This document shows, in pieces, positions 16,973-62,223 of a stretch of 64,000 nucleotides of DNA (its first letter is position 1; each line of letters opens with the position of its first letter). The translations under genes and the position numbers were made by a program. This DNA is from a phage. The DNA lies in the sequence record PV467749.1; one strand, written 5' to 3'. The notes under the pieces were generated by a model that did not search any database, had not been told where the DNA came from, and was given only the letters and a program-made list of their open reading frames with translations.

Positions 16973-17623
16973 TTACATATTATATAATGTGAATGCAGTC
17001 ACTTTACCAGTTGTTGTTAGTTCATTATAAAGATACTCCAAGATTCTCGCACACTCTAAGTATATCTCGATATCATCATGAATAAGTGAGTACTGAAATA
17101 GCTGTTCTTCAGGTAATTTGTATTGACTTCCTTTTAATGAATTGAGAATATCTTTCACATCATCAAGTACTGGGTAAAGTACGAAATCTTCATCATATTT
17201 TGAAGCAATAAATTCAAATCCACCACCATCAGTACTAGATATACCAATCAGTACTTTATCAATCAAGTTAATGTTTATATAACGGTTGTGATTTGGGTGA
17301 ATTGAAATCTCAAACATACGAGTACTGTTACAATCAACATCAATATACAAATATACATCATTGAATTTATAAGTTAAACAACCGTACTCAAGAAAATCAG
17401 AACAAATAATTGATGAGTTTTTTCTTGTCTCTGCGTAATGCATCTTGATATTCTTTTCACGCATAAGTAATTCGAACTTTGCACTAAACTTGCCACCAGC
17501 AAGATAGTTAGTATTAGGACGTTTGTAACTTGCAACTGGTCGGTGGGATGATGTAAAGTATTTTTTTGTGAATCGTTTCTGTTTAGTGAAATATTCTTGA
17601 TAGAACTTACTTCTTTTATTCAT
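16973..17623 (-). CDS. Hypothetical protein, EExFQxS C-terminal-motif family
   Basis: 216 aa, opposite orientation, inserted between array members 14 and 15; basic N-terminus; C-terminal ..EEQLFQYSLIHDD.. motif shared with at least 12 other minus-strand proteins. Confidence 0.7.
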   Translation of the reverse strand: MNKRSKFYQEYFTKQKRFTKKYFTSSHRPVASYKRPNTNYLAGGKFSAKFELLMREKNIKMHYAETRKNSSIICSDFLEYGCLTYKFNDVYLYIDVDCNSTRMFEISIHPNHNRYININLIDKVLIGISSTDGGGFEFIASKYDEDFVLYPVLDDVKDILNSLKGSQYKLPEEQLFQYSLIHDDIEIYLECARILEYLYNELTTTGKVTAFTLYNM

Positions 17624-17700
17624 GAGTACCTCAATTAAATCGCTGTAAAATTGTACATTATAAAATGATTAAATAAAGTATAACACAAGGAGATTTTATC

Positions 17701-18825
17701 ATGTTACCTTTCGTATTGTTATTTGATTATGGGAACGAAAAACAAGAAAGTTCTTATGATGTTAGTGTATATGGAAACAATAACTACATTTTAAATAAAC
17801 AAACTGGAAACCTTTTTGCATCCGGTGCTGCGGCATTCATGGGTGATAACACAGTTAAGTATTATATTACCCAAATAGAATCAAATGTTCATAGCTGTGA
17901 GATAGGTTTCCTATCATCATGGATAATTAAGAAGGACAAAACTGTTTTCATTTTAGGAAACAAAAGCAGTATAGGATTAACTGGTTCGACAACATCATGG
18001 TTCGAAATTACAAATTTATTTTCTGCTGTTCCTGAAATATGGGACAACCTATTTGAATGTAAAGTTCAATTGGGATATAACTGTATACGTGTTATGACAC
18101 CACTAGGATCAATCTATGCGATTGGTACAAACACTTATGGTGCATTGGGTACTGGTACTACATCCTCATCAACTTCGTTCGTTAAAAGTGGTGCTGTGGA
18201 TGCTGTACGCATGGAATCAACAGAACGTTCAGTGTTCTATCAAAACAGTTCTGGACAATGGTTTGGATGTGGTGATAACACATATGGTATACTAGGTCTA
18301 GGAACTACCGCGAGTCGTGTAAACTCATACACCGCACCAGTATGGACTAATGCAGAAGCTGTTAGCTTCTCTAACCGTGGGATCATATACAGCCTCAATG
18401 GTACTCTATACTCATGTGGTGACAAAGTTAATGGTCAGCTAGGGGATGGATATACACAAAGCATAGACGCTGCCAGGAGCACACCATACACCATAGGAAC
18501 CGCATTCCAAATTGGTAAGGCAATAACATCAGCTACACAAGCATCAGCCAACGTATTCATTGGTAAAGATAATAAGTTCTATGGTACTGGTAGTATTGCT
18601 GCTGGTATAAATGGTAGTACTAGTGCTGCATTAAGTAAAGTTACTGCGTTATCAGCAGCACTACCACCTGACATTACATACAATGATATTATAACATTTA
18701 ATACAGGGACCGTAACTTTTATTCAAGCAAAAGGACAACTATATTATGTTGGTAGAAGAACTTACATAGATAATAGTTCAGACGTTACCACACAGTTCAG
18801 TGTAATTGGTGGCTTAGATAATTAA
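17701..18825 (+). CDS. RCC1-like repeat beta-propeller protein, array member 15 (N-term MLPFVLLFDYGN)
   Basis: 374 aa; RBS AAGGAG 17687-17692; variant N-terminus; motifs IYAIGTNTYGALGTG, WFGCGDNTYGILGLG, LYSCGDKVNGQLGDG. Confidence 0.85.
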   Translation: MLPFVLLFDYGNEKQESSYDVSVYGNNNYILNKQTGNLFASGAAAFMGDNTVKYYITQIESNVHSCEIGFLSSWIIKKDKTVFILGNKSSIGLTGSTTSWFEITNLFSAVPEIWDNLFECKVQLGYNCIRVMTPLGSIYAIGTNTYGALGTGTTSSSTSFVKSGAVDAVRMESTERSVFYQNSSGQWFGCGDNTYGILGLGTTASRVNSYTAPVWTNAEAVSFSNRGIIYSLNGTLYSCGDKVNGQLGDGYTQSIDAARSTPYTIGTAFQIGKAITSATQASANVFIGKDNKFYGTGSIAAGINGSTSAALSKVTALSAALPPDITYNDIITFNTGTVTFIQAKGQLYYVGRRTYIDNSSDVTTQFSVIGGLDN

Positions 18826-18831
18826 AATTAA

Positions 18832-18861
18832 TCCAGTACTATTATAGTACTGGATTTTTTA
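18832..18861. terminator. Bidirectional terminator hairpin TCCAGTACT-ATTATA-GTACTGGA + T-run
   Basis: Inverted repeat with T-run on + side, between convergent genes 17701-18825 (+) and 18862-19233 (-). Confidence 0.6.
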
Positions 18862-19233
18862 TTATAACATACGTTTTTTACGAATAGTATTGTGGATATT
18901 TTTTAAGTAGTTCACACCTTTACACAACCCATAAAATACACCAGCACATACACCAAATGCAGGTATCATACATGCAAACATCGTTATCAATTCCCACATC
19001 TCCATGCCATCTTGATTCGGTCCAAGGTCAAAGATAACAACCGAAACCAAACCTGTGATACTTAGCATATAATATGCCATGAAGATAATAAAAGAAACAA
19101 TACCAACATCAGAGCGAACTGAATTTAGCATATTATATACTGGGGTTACACAGAAGTAATACAATAACCAAATCAAAGAACCTAAACTAAACACAATAAT
19201 AGTAATGATCGAAAATATTTCACGATAACTCAT
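18862..19233 (-). CDS. Small polytopic membrane protein (membrane-family paralog)
   Basis: 123 aa, 3-4 hydrophobic helices, basic C-terminal tail (..RKKRML); first of 7 tightly packed similar genes. Confidence 0.65.
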   Translation of the reverse strand: MSYREIFSIITIIVFSLGSLIWLLYYFCVTPVYNMLNSVRSDVGIVSFIIFMAYYMLSITGLVSVVIFDLGPNQDGMEMWELITMFACMIPAFGVCAGVFYGLCKGVNYLKNIHNTIRKKRML

Positions 19234-19234
19234 T

Positions 19235-60333: not shown

Positions 60334-60727
60334 TATATTTATCTTTATAAAAATCCATGATTTTAGTCAACAGTACTGCAATCGTATAATCTAAATCAGG
60401 ATAAAGTAAATTGTACTGAAATTCTTCCTCTACACTATAGTTTGTGGTGCAGTACTGATAGTCTTTATAACCAATGGAAAAATGGTTAGGATACAATGTA
60501 CAACGAAAACGATATGCTTCATCTGTCATATAATCATTGTATTCAACACAGAAGTATAGTGATTTGGCATTTAATTCAATAAGCTCAACGAAACCATCAG
60601 GTAATGAATGGTTATAAATTACTGAATCTTCATTAAACCATTCATAGTATTTTTCCAAAAAATCACTAATGGATACATCCAGACTTTGTATAGGTGGAGT
60701 AATGACAATTTGAACTTCGTTATTCAT
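60323..60727 (-). CDS. Hypothetical protein, EExFQxS-like C-terminal-motif family
   Basis: 134 aa; ..NYSVEEEFQYNLLYPDLD.. Confidence 0.6.
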   Translation of the reverse strand: MNNEVQIVITPPIQSLDVSISDFLEKYYEWFNEDSVIYNHSLPDGFVELIELNAKSLYFCVEYNDYMTDEAYRFRCTLYPNHFSIGYKDYQYCTTNYSVEEEFQYNLLYPDLDYTIAVLLTKIMDFYKDKYNAA

Positions 60728-61212
60728 TTCGACCCCTTACTATATTTCACGTATGGGCTATCATACAGATCATAACTTTTTTGTGCACGTTCTTTTCGGC
60801 GTTCATACATGATTCTATCATACTCTTTAGCTTTCTGATTTGCTTCATTATACAATTTTAAAATTAGCAAAAATGCATCAAGATCGGGATAGTTTGCTGG
60901 ATTGATAGTACTCAGCATAAATCGTTCTTCTTCAGTTCTAGCTAAGTCAAATTCATACTTAATAGTTTTATACCCACTCCATTTATATATATGCGTTACT
61001 TTATTAGTAAGTACATTATATTCAACGAAGTCAGTACTACCATCAAGTACACGAGTAATCTTAATAGATGTACCAATGACAATCTGTACAGAACTCATTT
61101 CTGAAGTTTTAAAGTAAAAAATGTTATTACGGCGAAGATTAACTTCTCGATCTCCAATGCGAACATGCTTAATAACTTCCATTAATGGTTCTGGGACACC
61201 ACGAATCGGCAT
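60724..61212 (-). CDS. Hypothetical protein, EExFQxS-like C-terminal-motif family
   Basis: Start moved to Met7 (GAGGAATA RBS); ..RTEEERFMLSTINPANYPDLD.. Confidence 0.55.
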   Translation of the reverse strand: MPIRGVPEPLMEVIKHVRIGDREVNLRRNNIFYFKTSEMSSVQIVIGTSIKITRVLDGSTDFVEYNVLTNKVTHIYKWSGYKTIKYEFDLARTEEERFMLSTINPANYPDLDAFLLILKLYNEANQKAKEYDRIMYERRKERAQKSYDLYDSPYVKYSKGSK

Positions 61213-61213
61213 G

Positions 61214-61783
61214 TTAGTATTCCTCAACAACGGTTAGGAATCTATCCCAACCAGTATAAGTGAAATGATCAAAGTATTGTTTTTCGCCACCTACCATATA
61301 TACTTCAATTAAACCGTGGTCGAAATAATTTTTTGGTTTTTTAACTTCAGTTACAATTGCTTTATGTCTGAAACCATTATAATCAGTATATGTTACAATA
61401 TCGTGAATTTTGATATTATCAGGTGTATAAGTGTTGGCGTTATTATTGAGAACATGAAGATGATGGTCTACGATTTCTTTACTGGAAATTACCCCAAATA
61501 TGTTACCAGAAAATACTTTATTACCATTACAGGTCAATGCCCAGCCATCACCAACTTCAATAGATTCAAATACATAATGTGTGCAAATTTTAGATACATC
61601 TGACGTATCCCAGTAATCACCATCAAGATTGGTGAATTTATAAACAGTTTTGAGTTTTTCGCCATCAAATGAAAGCAATGATACTCCGATAACAACCGTT
61701 CCGTCTTTAAGAATAATATTAAATTTATTATTTGTATTAAAGTATGCTTCTGACTCAGATGAGTTGAATTTAATAAAGTTCAT
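61214..61783 (-). CDS. Hypothetical protein
   Basis: 189 aa ORF. Confidence 0.65.
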   Translation of the reverse strand: MNFIKFNSSESEAYFNTNNKFNIILKDGTVVIGVSLLSFDGEKLKTVYKFTNLDGDYWDTSDVSKICTHYVFESIEVGDGWALTCNGNKVFSGNIFGVISSKEIVDHHLHVLNNNANTYTPDNIKIHDIVTYTDYNGFRHKAIVTEVKKPKNYFDHGLIEVYMVGGEKQYFDHFTYTGWDRFLTVVEEY

Positions 61784-61830
61784 ATGTTCTCCTTAGTAAG
61801 TCATAGTATTATATCAGAGTTTCATTGCAC

Positions 61831-62223
61831 TTACCAGCATGTTTTCATAACTTCTGTGATGTAAATCATTTTATCTTTTAGTTCATAAGGGATGCAAATT
61901 TCACCTGGGCTTAACGTTGTGTTCTTTTGAAACTCATCCTCTTCGGAATCAGCCAGGTAAAATGGGTGCGTCACAAAGTTATCATCAACTGGACGATTAT
62001 GTGGTTTCATTAATGCATCATGATTGACAAAATAATAAGCATCAATATCAGGACGGAAATACAAACAATCAACCTTAATGCACGGGTGTAACCATAAGGA
62101 CAAAGAATATGTTATTTGGTTACCAATTTGTCTTGGACCAGATGCAATTGTATTGATGTTATTTTTATCTTGTACCATTTCATAAATGAAATCTATCATT
62201 TTACGTAGTTCAGATTCAGTCAT
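61831..62223 (-). CDS. Hypothetical protein, EExFQ-like C-terminal-motif family
   Basis: 130 aa; ..ADSEEDEFQKNTTLSPGE.. Confidence 0.6.
   Translation of the reverse strand: MTESELRKMIDFIYEMVQDKNNINTIASGPRQIGNQITYSLSLWLHPCIKVDCLYFRPDIDAYYFVNHDALMKPHNRPVDDNFVTHPFYLADSEEDEFQKNTTLSPGEICIPYELKDKMIYITEVMKTCW

What the first reader, a model, noticed from the sequence alone, without database searches (positions are those of the whole stretch)
16973..62223. At least 13 dispersed proteins share a C-terminal EE-x-(F/Y)-(F/M)-Q-x-S motif
Genes at 16973, 30828, 36799, 51088, 51497, 51910, 53056, 53408, 56962, 57727, 60323, 60724 and 61831 (120-220 aa) all carry an acidic stretch followed by aromatic-Q/M-x-S/T about 25-45 residues from the C-terminus, for example EEEYFQES, EESLFQYS, EEKFFQYC, EEEYFQTS. 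The pattern resembles a protease recognition site of the ExxYFQ(S/G) type, or a shared interaction motif. I do not recognise the family.
Basis: inference. Interest (0 to 1): 0.6.

Follow-up and report, generated by a model that had tools for sequence, protein, structure and literature searches.

The report
Hidden multigene family in jumbo phage
The 13 genes belong to a large, previously undescribed family of small, mostly acidic proteins that makes up about 8% of the genes of RaK2/PBECO4-type jumbo phages; the shared EE-x-x-F-Q-x-S motif is the start of a conserved helix in their common fold, not a protease cutting site, and their function is still unknown.

Summary
All 13 minus-strand ORFs carry [T/S]-E-[E/D]-x-x-F-[Q/M]-x-S 29-65 residues from the C-terminus. 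No other ORF in the window matches a family profile: the 13 score E 3e-15 to 9e-5 and the next ORF scores E 0.47.

The window comes from an Asteriusvirus jumbo coliphage of the PBECO4/121Q group. A profile built from the 13 window proteins alone finds 29 ORFs in a RaK2-like Klebsiella phage. Iterated profiles find 48 in the Asteriusvirus TH47 genome and 38 in the Klebsiella phage. All hits lie on one strand, and reversed or shuffled controls give none.

AlphaFold models of two divergent members (pLDDT 84 and 87) share one architecture: an N-terminal helix, a 5-6-stranded antiparallel sheet and two C-terminal helices. The motif caps and starts the first of these C-terminal helices.

The TEV-type protease reading fails. 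Ser sits at P2', not P1'. Tyr occupies P3 in only 3 of 13. Met replaces Gln at the P1 position in 2 of 13. The motif is helical and confidently modelled.

My functional guess is inferred, not shown: early, diversified binders used in host takeover.

The parts
16973..17623 (-). Family member, 216 aa. Carries a basic N-terminal extension (pI 7.6). Motif PEEQLFQYSL at 17084-17113.
   Evidence: Leave-one-out E 4e-4, rank 1. Genome-iterated profile E 4e-8. It lies inside the plus-strand array of ~380-aa paralogues.
30828..31400 (-). Family member, 190 aa. Carries a basic N-terminal extension (pI 9.1). Motif NEEEYFQESI at 30936-30965.
   Evidence: Leave-one-out E 9e-4, rank 1. Iterated profile E 6e-13.
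36799..37314 (-). Family member, 171 aa, pI 4.6. Motif TEESVFQQSL at 36937-36966.
   Evidence: Leave-one-out E 3e-4. Orthologue of phAPEC6 gp054c.
51088..51537 (-). Family member, 149 aa, pI 4.7. Motif TEEEHFMDST at 51181-51210 (Met in place of Gln).
   Evidence: Leave-one-out E 1e-4. Colinear RaK2 orthologue L001 38602-39009, 35% identity, E 2e-16.
51497..51901 (-). Family member, 134 aa, pI 4.4. Motif DEDMFFQLST at 51575-51604. Overlaps the downstream member by 41 nt.
   Evidence: BLASTP to 51910 E 4e-5. Leave-one-out E 8e-6. Absent from phage EC.P1 and not annotated in phAPEC6.
51910..52326 (-). Family member, 138 aa from the ATG at 52326 (the mechanical ORF runs to a GTG at 52386). pI 4.5. 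Motif TEDMYMQLNF at 52006-52035 (Met in place of Phe).
   Evidence: Leave-one-out E 2e-6. Database protein P0107 starts at MNKEV. A promoter-like site at 52406-52377 and a terminator-like hairpin at 52375-52349 lie upstream of 52326.
53056..53415 (-). Family member, 119 aa, pI 4.4. Motif TEESLFQYSM at 53131-53160.
   Evidence: BLASTP to 53408 E 2e-11, 31% identity. Leave-one-out E 2e-7. RaK2 orthologue L001 37192-37608.
53408..53824 (-). Family member, 138 aa, pI 4.3. Motif TEEKFFQYCL at 53507-53536. Modelled. Overlaps 53056-53415 by 8 nt.
   Evidence: AlphaFold2 pLDDT 84.4, pTM 0.78: H5-15, six strands, H92-95, H98-107, H115-125; the motif T96-S/C104 starts H98-107. TEEKFFQY is the longest invariant run in 90 orthologue clusters. 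Orthologue of phAPEC6 gp088c.
56962..57339 (-). Family member, 125 aa, pI 4.5. Degenerate motif DEADEFQKRT at 57052-57081.
   Evidence: Leave-one-out E 0.014, rank 1. Iterated profile E 1e-10.
57727..58092 (-). Family member, 121 aa, pI 4.5. Motif TEEEYFQTST at 57805-57834. Modelled.
   Evidence: AlphaFold2 pLDDT 86.6, pTM 0.80: H2-14, five strands, H88-97, H104-120; the motif T87-S95 caps and starts H88-97. A sigma-70-like site (11 of 12 matches) at 58151-58124 lies just upstream of the start.
60323..60727 (-). Family member, 134 aa, pI 4.2. Motif shortened by one residue: SVEEEFQYNL at 60407-60436. Start overlaps the stop of 60724 by 4 nt.
   Evidence: Leave-one-out E 6e-3, rank 1. Iterated profile E 9e-5.
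60724..61212 (-). Family member, 162 aa from the ATG at 61212 (the mechanical ORF runs to a TTG at 61230). Carries a basic C-terminal tail (pI 9.3). Motif TEEERFMLST at 60907-60936 (Met in place of Gln).
   Evidence: Leave-one-out E 9e-5. P0117 starts at MPIRG. RaK2 orthologue L001 31305-31796, 30% identity, E 1e-17.
61831..62223 (-). Family member, 130 aa, pI 4.8, the weakest of the 13. Motif SEEDEFQKNT at 61918-61947.
   Evidence: Leave-one-out rank 3, E 0.37. E 1e-9 and 6e-9 with iterated profiles.

Best explanation
The 13 ORFs are paralogues of one large, ancient family that is specific to this phage lineage. Its members are small (about 100-240 aa), mostly acidic and not part of the virion. 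The family occurs in RaK2/PBECO4-type jumbo phages, with about 48 copies in an Asteriusvirus genome and about 38 in a RaK2-like genome.

Shown:
- The proteins share a profile-detectable C-terminal module.
- Two divergent members are predicted to share one alpha/beta fold: an N-terminal helix, a 5-6-stranded antiparallel meander sheet, then two C-terminal helices.
- The motif [T/S]-E-[E/D]-x-(Y/L/F)-F-Q-x-S-(T/L)-(V/I/L)-x-D follows the last strand directly and forms the N-cap and first two to three turns of the first of the two C-terminal helices.
- It is the most constrained segment both across paralogues and within one orthologous group.

Inferred:
- The motif is a fold-defining element. Thr or Ser would cap the helix, the two acidic residues would sit at its positive N-terminus, and Phe plus the preceding aromatic or aliphatic residue would pack the helical hairpin onto the sheet. 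Gln and Ser would make conserved polar contacts.
- The sheet and loops have diverged to below 20% identity. Each paralogue has been kept in colinear order since before the two genera split. I take this to mean that each copy recognises a different partner.
- Given the strong sigma-70-like promoters, absence from the virion proteome and net charge of -8 to -14, the most likely role is a set of early-expressed acidic binders or decoys. They would target host proteins, probably basic or nucleic-acid-binding ones, for host takeover or counter-defence.
For: Family is real:
- Leave-one-out profiles recover 12 of 13 at rank 1.
- The window-only profile finds 10 ORFs in 40 kb of RaK2 and 29 ORFs, all on one strand, in a RaK2-like genome.
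- Iterated profiles give 48 in TH47 and 38 in the Klebsiella phage, with no hits in reversed or shuffled controls.

Protein-level constraint:
- Synonymous codons vary at the motif.
- TEEKFFQY is the longest invariant run in 90 orthologue clusters.
- F is 98%, Q 91%, E 86% and S 80% conserved over 86 members.

Shared fold and motif position: two AlphaFold2 models have the same order of secondary-structure elements, and the motif sits at a helix start with block pLDDT of 90 or more.

Ancient duplication: RaK2 and Asteriusvirus members pair colinearly at 25-43% identity, and all 11 members tested have a syntenic orthologue in phAPEC6.

Acidity: 10 of 13 have pI 4.2-4.8 against a background median of 6.7, and 37 of 48 in TH47 are acidic.

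Not in the virion: none of the phAPEC6 orthologues (gp054c, 083c, 084c, 087c, 088c, 092c, 093c, 102c, 103c, 105c, 120c, 121c, 127c-132c, 134c) appears in the virion mass-spectrometry table (PMC7247149).

Early-type context: all 11 best sigma-70-like matches in 46-64 kb are on the gene strand. A phage RpoD-like sigma factor lies in the same cluster. The CBB paper regards the equivalent region as early genes (PMC5259590).
Against: - No function has been demonstrated for any member, so the binder or host-takeover role is inference from context and charge.
- The total count of promoter-like sites is not above the shuffle expectation (82 against 92.7). Only the strand bias of the best sites is suggestive.
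- No transcriptome for these phages was found.
- The second model's alignment included paralogues of the first, so the two folds are not fully independent predictions.
- Coordinates of the models were not available, so burial and contacts of F, Q and S could not be checked.
- Family orthologues are not significantly more divergent than their neighbours (median 77% against 88% identity, p = 0.38). There is therefore no signal of an arms race within the genus.
- Conserved polar residues (E, E, Q, S) could equally mark a functional surface rather than a structural one.
Confidence: 0.65

Rival explanations
1. The conserved helix is a common docking motif. The helical hairpin that starts with TEExxFQxS would bind one shared partner, such as a host hub like RNA polymerase, a protease or chaperone, or a phage-encoded hub. 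The variable sheet of each paralogue would then recruit a different client, as in an adaptor family.
For: The best-conserved residues include polar and charged ones (E 86%, E/D 97%, Q 91%, S 80%). That pattern is more typical of a functional surface than of a hydrophobic core. The motif is invariant in 90 orthologue clusters while flanking residues vary. It is also retained in members whose overall charge has become basic.
Against: The motif is an integral, confidently modelled secondary-structure element directly after the last strand, and a capping Thr/Ser with acidic N1/N2 residues is a standard helix-stabilising arrangement. No candidate partner was identified. The reading is compatible with the best explanation rather than exclusive of it.
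Confidence: 0.2
2. The proteins are distant homologues of the MAM33/p32 (gC1qBP) family. That family consists of acidic alpha-beta7-alpha2 proteins that form trimeric rings and bind basic ligands.
Confidence: 0.1
3. The motif is a protease recognition site, either TEV/3C-like (ExxYxQ|S/G) or a phage maturation-protease site, and cleavage removes a C-terminal peptide of 30-45 residues.
For: Two members (30828 with EEEYFQ|E, 57727 with EEEYFQ|T) match ExxYxQ at P6-P1. The position relative to the C-terminus is fairly constant.
Against: P1' is never S or G, because the conserved Ser is at P2'. P3 is Tyr in only 3 of 13. Gln is replaced by Met in 2 of 13. The segment is helical with pLDDT of 90 or more in both models, and the downstream helix is part of the fold. 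The proteins were not detected in the phAPEC6 virion proteome, where the prohead protease acts. No cognate protease was identified, although no systematic search was made.
Confidence: 0.03
4. The pattern is a chance or compositional artefact of acidic proteins in an AT-rich genome, or reflects a repeated DNA element rather than a protein feature.
For: The genome has 35% G+C and the proteins are rich in E, D, F, Y and N. The loose regular expression still hits about 4 of 102 shuffled proteins.
Against: 14 observed against 4.0 +/- 1.95 expected, and 12 against 0.13 for the strict pattern. Reversed and shuffled ORF sets give no profile hits at E <= 0.1, against 48 real hits. The finding is replicated in another genus. 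Codons at the motif differ synonymously (CAG/CAA, TTT/TTC, AGT/AGC/TCA/TCT), so the DNA sequence itself is not conserved.
Confidence: 0.01

Closest known systems
MAM33 / p32 / gC1qBP family (Pfam PF02330; PDB 1P32, 3QV0, 3JV1, 1YQF)
   Different: There is no sequence or profile similarity. The sheet has 5-6 rather than 7 strands. The MAM33 C-terminal signature is missing. Oligomeric state is unknown. The structural score is weak and matched by unrelated meander sheets. MAM33 proteins are mitochondrial and eukaryotic, whereas this family is confined to a jumbo-phage lineage.
TEV NIa / picornain 3C-type cleavage sites (E-x-x-Y-x-Q|S/G)
   Same: The E..(Y/F)-F-Q string looks superficially alike, and two members match ExxYxQ exactly.
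   Different: Ser is at P2', not P1'. The P3 Tyr is not conserved. Met can replace Gln. The motif lies in a structured helix. No cognate protease is known in these phages.
Small acidic early proteins of large phages (DNA mimics and host-takeover or anti-restriction proteins such as T7 Ocr and T4 Arn; comparison from general knowledge, not tested here)
   Same: They are small, acidic, non-virion proteins encoded in promoter-rich early-type gene clusters of a virulent phage.
   Different: No sequence or demonstrated fold relationship exists, and no target is known. This family is expanded to about 40-50 paralogues per genome, whereas those examples are single-copy genes.
T4-type internal proteins that share a capsid-targeting sequence cleaved by the prohead protease (general knowledge)
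   Same: Otherwise dissimilar phage proteins share one short conserved motif.
   Different: That motif is N-terminal, lies in an unstructured leader and belongs to packaged virion proteins. Here the motif is in the C-terminal part, is helical, and the proteins are absent from the phAPEC6 virion proteome.
PHROGs phrog_17453, phrog_24321, phrog_24941 and about 18 singleton-type PHROGs (all of unknown function)
   Same: These PHROGs contain the orthologues of individual window members.
   Different: PHROGs splits the family into many unrelated-looking groups. The superfamily relationship and the shared motif are not recorded there.

Membership tests
One homologous (paralogous) protein family | Members recognise each other by sequence profile, above non-members | tested here: met
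   Leave-one-out: 12 of 13 rank first and 11 have E < 0.01. With the genome-iterated profile the 13 score E 3e-15 to 9e-5 and the next ORF scores E 0.47. Controls give 0 hits.
One homologous (paralogous) protein family | Same fold in divergent members | tested here: met
   Two AlphaFold2 models (pLDDT 84.4 and 86.6) have the same order of elements and the motif at the same structural position. Caveats: only 2 of 13 were modelled, and their alignments share some paralogues.
One homologous (paralogous) protein family | Recoverable in related genomes with a profile trained only on the window | tested here: met
   10 ORFs in 40 kb of RaK2. 29 ORFs, all on one strand, in OU509535. Orthologue pairs are colinear.
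TEV/3C-type protease site | Gln at P1 followed directly by Ser or Gly at P1' | tested here: not met
   P1' is Y, E, Q, D, L, T or K, and the conserved Ser is at P2'. Met replaces Gln in 2 of 13.
TEV/3C-type protease site | Tyr at P3 and Glu at P6 | tested here: not met
   Tyr at P3 is present only in 30828, 51910 and 57727. The others have L, V, H, F, E or R.
TEV/3C-type protease site | Site lies in an accessible, extended segment | tested here: not met
   The site is helical in both models, with block pLDDT of 90-93.
TEV/3C-type protease site | Cognate protease encoded by the phage or host | not tested
   Only annotations were seen in passing: a prohead protease (phAPEC6 gp227c) and a T5-like metallopeptidase in RaK2. 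No systematic protease search was made.
MAM33/p32 (PF02330) | Match to the family's sequence profile | tested here: not met
   No Pfam hit at E <= 1 for any of the 13. hhalign against six solved family members gives probability 0.1%.
MAM33/p32 (PF02330) | alpha-beta7-alpha2 fold | tested here: inconclusive
MAM33/p32 (PF02330) | Homotrimeric ring with an acidic face | not testable with these tools
   Only monomer prediction was available. Acidity itself is met: pI 4.2-4.8 in 10 of 13.
Virion internal proteins processed by the prohead protease | Present in purified virions | tested here: not met
   None of the 19 annotated phAPEC6 orthologues mapped is in the 62-protein virion table, which jumps from gp078c to gp149c (PMC7247149).

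The most novel reading that the evidence does not exclude
A single ancestral alpha/beta scaffold was duplicated some 40-60 times, before the Asteriusvirus and Alcyoneusvirus genera split, and now supplies 8-10% of all genes of these 350-kb phages. The result would be a phage-encoded repertoire of acidic binder or decoy proteins. Each copy would be tuned to a different host protein, such as a defence nuclease, a nucleoid protein or part of the transcription machinery, on a constant helical core marked by TEExxFQxS. If so, much of the ORFan content of this jumbo-phage lineage would be one diversified counter-host toolkit, and the motif would give a handle to find and test all members at once.
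Probability: 0.25. Interest if true: 0.7.

Novelty: new member of a known kind. Interest (0 to 1): 0.45.

Why it matters
More than 80% of the genes in RaK2/PBECO4/121Q-type jumbo phages are annotated as hypothetical (the phAPEC6 paper gives 83%). This result shows that about 8% of the ORFs of at least 50 aa in one such genome (48 of about 576 in TH47) form one hidden superfamily, with a diagnostic motif and a confident predicted fold.

That turns dozens of ORFans into one tractable problem. It also gives concrete support to the idea that jumbo genomes grew by duplication and divergence, as proposed by Hua et al. 2017 (PMC5646251). Finally, it yields a defined gene set for experiments: expression timing, toxicity screens, pull-downs and cluster deletions.

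These phages are being developed for therapy against E. coli, Klebsiella and Salmonella. Knowing what a tenth of their genes do is therefore of practical interest. As it stands the function is unknown, so the immediate value lies in annotation and organisation of the gene set rather than in mechanism.

Tried and rejected
1. Pairwise BLASTP among window ORFs links only 51497, 51910, 53408 and 53056. It is too insensitive for this family, so profiles were needed.
2. The first large-database search, using the full-length 13-sequence alignment, returned almost only orthologues of the 138-aa member. All came from contigs of about 350 kb, with no outside relatives.
3. Pfam, NCBIfam, PADLOC and PDB sequence searches gave nothing meaningful.
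4. A profile search of 1.84 billion representative proteins found only 25 clusters at E <= 1e-3, all of the same jumbo-phage family. No bacterial or other viral relatives are detectable.
5. The AFDB Foldseek library was unavailable. BFVD returned only uncharacterised proteins from RaK2, CBB, GAP32 and Erwinia jumbo phages.
6. MAM33/p32 homology was tested by rebuilding an alignment from solved chains and running hhalign. It was rejected at the sequence level, with probability 0.1%.
7. A DNA-level repeat was rejected, because codons at the motif vary synonymously.
8. Faster evolution of family members than of their neighbours was not significant.
9. Escherichia phage IA-38 (94 kb) looked like a possible non-jumbo carrier, but it is an unverified Asteriusvirus record.
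10. Literature searches for a described paralogue family or for transcriptomes of these genera found nothing relevant. The CBB paper lists only 22 pairwise paralogues.

Full report
**Source of the window.** The window is 35% G+C. It is 98% identical to Escherichia phage CMSTMSU over 92% of a 12.5-kb test stretch, and 90-97% identical to EC.P1, PBECO4 and other members of the genus Asteriusvirus, which have genomes of 350-386 kb. Positions 25-18825 carry a plus-strand tandem array of paralogues of about 380 aa. The rest is a dense run of small minus-strand ORFs with four tRNA genes. Every record annotates these small ORFs as hypothetical.

**Check of the observation.** All 13 ORFs exist as described. 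Anchoring on the Phe gives the pattern (P/N/T/D/S)-E-(E/D)-x-x-F-(Q/M)-x-(S/N/C/R), 29-50 residues from the C-terminus, or 65 in the case of 60724.
- A loose regular expression hits these 13 and one weak extra ORF among 253 ORFs of at least 50 aa, and it hits none of the spurious or plus-strand ORFs.
- On 102 gene-like ORFs it gives 14 hits against 4.0 +/- 1.95 in 1000 residue shuffles. A stricter pattern, chosen after seeing the data, gives 12 against 0.13.
- In leave-one-out tests with a profile of the C-terminal 60 residues, the omitted protein ranks first among about 240 non-family ORFs in 12 of 13 cases, and 11 have E < 0.01. ORF 61831 is marginal.
- A profile iterated on a complete related genome scores the 13 at E 3e-15 to 9e-5, and the next window ORF at E 0.47.

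Two starts should probably move to internal ATGs, giving 51910-52326 and 60724-61212, because database proteins P0107 and P0117 begin there. A promoter-like site and a hairpin also lie between the GTG at 52386 and the ATG at 52326.

**Protein or DNA constraint.** Codons in the motif differ synonymously: CAG or CAA for Gln, TTT or TTC for Phe, four different Ser codons, and ACT or ACA for Thr. The constraint is therefore on the protein, not on a DNA element.

**Size and spread of the family.**
- The profile trained only on the 13 window proteins finds 10 ORFs with E < 1e-4 in a 40-kb syntenic stretch of Klebsiella phage RaK2, genus Alcyoneusvirus.
- The same profile finds 29 ORFs, all on one strand, in a complete RaK2-like genome, OU509535.
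- Iteration converges at 22 members in the first 100 kb of EC.P1, 21 in 40 kb of phAPEC6, 48 in the whole Asteriusvirus TH47 genome and 38 in OU509535.
- The TH47 genome is 352 kb with about 576 non-overlapping ORFs. Its members cluster at 53-81 kb, 108-182 kb and 336-351 kb.
- About 15 more TH47 ORFs score between E 1e-3 and 0.1. All lie on the same strand, and most lie within or next to the member clusters. Reversed and shuffled ORF sets give nothing better than E 0.36-1.4.
- Over 86 members the motif is [T 43%/S 29%]-E 86%-[E 75%/D 22%]-x-[Y/L/F]-F 98%-Q 91% (otherwise M)-x-S 80%-[T/L]-[V/I/L]-x-[D/E/N].
- RaK2 and Asteriusvirus members pair up in colinear order at 25-43% identity, for example RaK2 38602 with window 51088, 37192 with 53056 and 31305 with 60724. 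The duplications therefore predate the split of the two genera.
- Each of the 11 window members in the region covered by the phAPEC6 locus has a syntenic orthologue there.
- Foldseek against BFVD also retrieves uncharacterised proteins of Pectobacterium phage CBB, Cronobacter phage GAP32 and an Erwinia jumbo phage.
- Outside this lineage nothing is detectable. A profile search of 1.84 billion representative proteins yields 25 clusters at E <= 1e-3, and all are recognisably the same family.

**Fold.** AlphaFold2 was run on the 138-aa member 53408, with 18 sequences in the alignment. It gave pLDDT 84.4 and pTM 0.78, with elements H5-15, six antiparallel strands, a short H92-95, H98-107 and H115-125. 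For the divergent 121-aa member 57727 (14% identity to 53408 in alignment A4), it gave pLDDT 86.6 and pTM 0.80, with H2-14, five strands, H88-97 and H104-120.

In both models the motif (T96-C104 and T87-S95) begins one residue before the first long C-terminal helix and fills its first turns, with block pLDDT of 90-93.

Within 90 orthologue clusters of the 138-aa protein, the longest invariant run is exactly TEEKFFQY.

**The protease-site reading.** A TEV-type site needs Gln at P1 with Ser or Gly at P1', Tyr at P3, and an accessible extended segment. This family fails each requirement:
- The conserved Ser is at P2' and P1' is variable.
- Tyr at P3 occurs in 3 of 13.
- Met replaces Gln in 2 of 13.
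- The segment is helical.

Processing by the phage head protease is also unlikely. The phAPEC6 orthologues (gp054c, 083c, 084c, 087c, 088c, 092c, 093c, 102c, 103c, 105c, 120c, 121c, 127c-132c, 134c) are all absent from the published 62-protein virion proteome, which lists gp077 and gp078c and then jumps to gp149c (PMC7247149).

**Comparison with known families.** No Pfam, NCBIfam or PADLOC family matches. PHROGs spreads the 13 over about 20 families of unknown function. A profile search of PDB sequences gives only noise.

Those proteins share the order of elements (an N-terminal helix, a meander sheet and two C-terminal helices) and the strong acidity. However, I rebuilt an alignment of six solved MAM33-family chains, and hhalign against the phage family gives probability 0.1%. 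The resemblance is a lead about architecture, not membership.

**Context and likely role.**
- Ten of the 13 have pI 4.2-4.8 and net charge -8 to -14, against a median pI of 6.7 for neighbouring ORFs. The other three carry basic N- or C-terminal extensions. In TH47, 37 of 48 are acidic.
- Genes are tightly packed, and some starts overlap the preceding stop (53408/53056 by 8 nt, 60724/60323 by 4 nt).
- All 11 sigma-70-like sites with at least 11 of 12 consensus matches in 46-64 kb lie on the gene strand. One is directly upstream of 57727, although the total number of weaker matches is not above shuffle expectation.
- A phage RpoD-like sigma factor lies in the same cluster at 41594-42559, as annotated in phAPEC6. 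The authors of the CBB genome regard the equivalent region as early, host-takeover genes (PMC5259590).
- No transcriptome of these genera was found.
- Family orthologues between the window and phAPEC6 are somewhat more divergent than their neighbours (median 77% against 88% identity), but not significantly so (p = 0.38).

**Conclusion.** Two things are shown. The finding is a real, large and ancient paralogous family confined to RaK2/PBECO4-type jumbo phages. Its motif sits at the N-terminus of a conserved helix in a shared predicted fold.

Two things are inferred. The motif is mainly fold-defining. The paralogues are early-expressed acidic binders whose variable sheets recognise different, probably basic, host partners.

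A common docking function for the conserved helix cannot be excluded. True MAM33 homology is possible but unsupported by sequence. The protease-site reading and chance are effectively excluded.

The family appears not to have been described: it is absent from the family databases I searched, and the genome papers I read for these phages do not mention it. In kind it is another lineage-specific expansion of small phage proteins of unknown function. What is notable is its size, about 8% of the genome's genes.

Noticed in passing
window 25-18825 (+ strand): There is a tandem array of 17 paralogous ORFs of about 300-450 aa, related pairwise at 22-28% identity (E 1e-4 to 1e-13). Going by the order of genes and the ~40-kDa protein sizes, they probably correspond to phAPEC6 gp003-gp010, several of which are annotated 'DNA condensation protein' and were detected in virions (PMC7247149). 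This may be the array of more than 30 similar genes that Hua et al. noted in 121Q (PMC5646251). One member of the acidic family (16973-17623) sits inside the array on the opposite strand.
   Followed up: partly
window 41594-42559 (-): A 321-aa ORF is orthologous to phAPEC6 gp066c, annotated as an RpoD-subfamily sigma-70 factor. It is only 60% identical between the window and phAPEC6, although its neighbours are about 90% identical.
   Followed up: no
window 54301-58844 (-): Four tRNA genes, Thr(TGT), Asn(GTT), Ser(GCT) and Ser(TGA), are interspersed among the small ORFs and family members. RaK2 has a syntenic tRNA block. A sigma-70-like site at 56971-56943 lies just upstream of tRNA-Ser at 56936.
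   Followed up: no
window 58161-58647 and 59981-60151 (-): A second mini-family consists of three tandem 54-aa ORFs (two of them 70% identical) plus a 56-aa relative 1.3 kb away. They are annotated as hypothetical in EC.P1 and phAPEC6.
   Followed up: no
window 25021-26056; 27517-29028 with 29861-30259; 33652-34002 with 34393-34788 (-): There are further small groups of paralogues among the minus-strand ORFs: 25021/25367/25718 at about 29% identity, the 503-aa ORF with the 132-aa ORF, and 33652 with 34393. The 132-aa ORF may be the 14.8-kDa virion protein gp037c of phAPEC6. This is inferred from size and gene order only.
   Followed up: no
window 59670-59643, 59526-59498, 54687-54660, 47340-47313 (-): Four perfect 12-of-12 matches to the sigma-70 consensus (TTGACA, 16-17 nt spacer, TATAAT) lie on the minus strand. 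All 11 sites with at least 11 of 12 matches in 46-64 kb are on that strand.
   Followed up: partly
orthologues of window 53408-53824, alignment A2 columns ~99-120 (residues ~79-90): The loop before the last strand is hypervariable among otherwise 65-90% identical orthologues. It carries insertions rich in D, E, Y and C, for example DHEDYECDHEECECECEDD in P0062 and DDVDYDNDDDVDYDNEDYE in P0072.
   Followed up: no
window 51497-51901; locus L004 8735-9178 and 21925-22341: The family member 51497-51901 has no counterpart in phage EC.P1, where its neighbours abut each other. Its phAPEC6 counterpart and one further family member are present in the DNA but are not annotated as genes.
   Followed up: partly
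phage TH47 (L005-L012) 53-81 kb and 174-182 kb; EC.P1 81.5-89 kb: Most family members lie outside the window. There is a second dense cluster of about 23 genes some 30-55 kb beyond the window's low-coordinate end in TH47 coordinates. A third cluster of about 10 genes starts some 3 kb past the window's high-coordinate end.
   Followed up: yes
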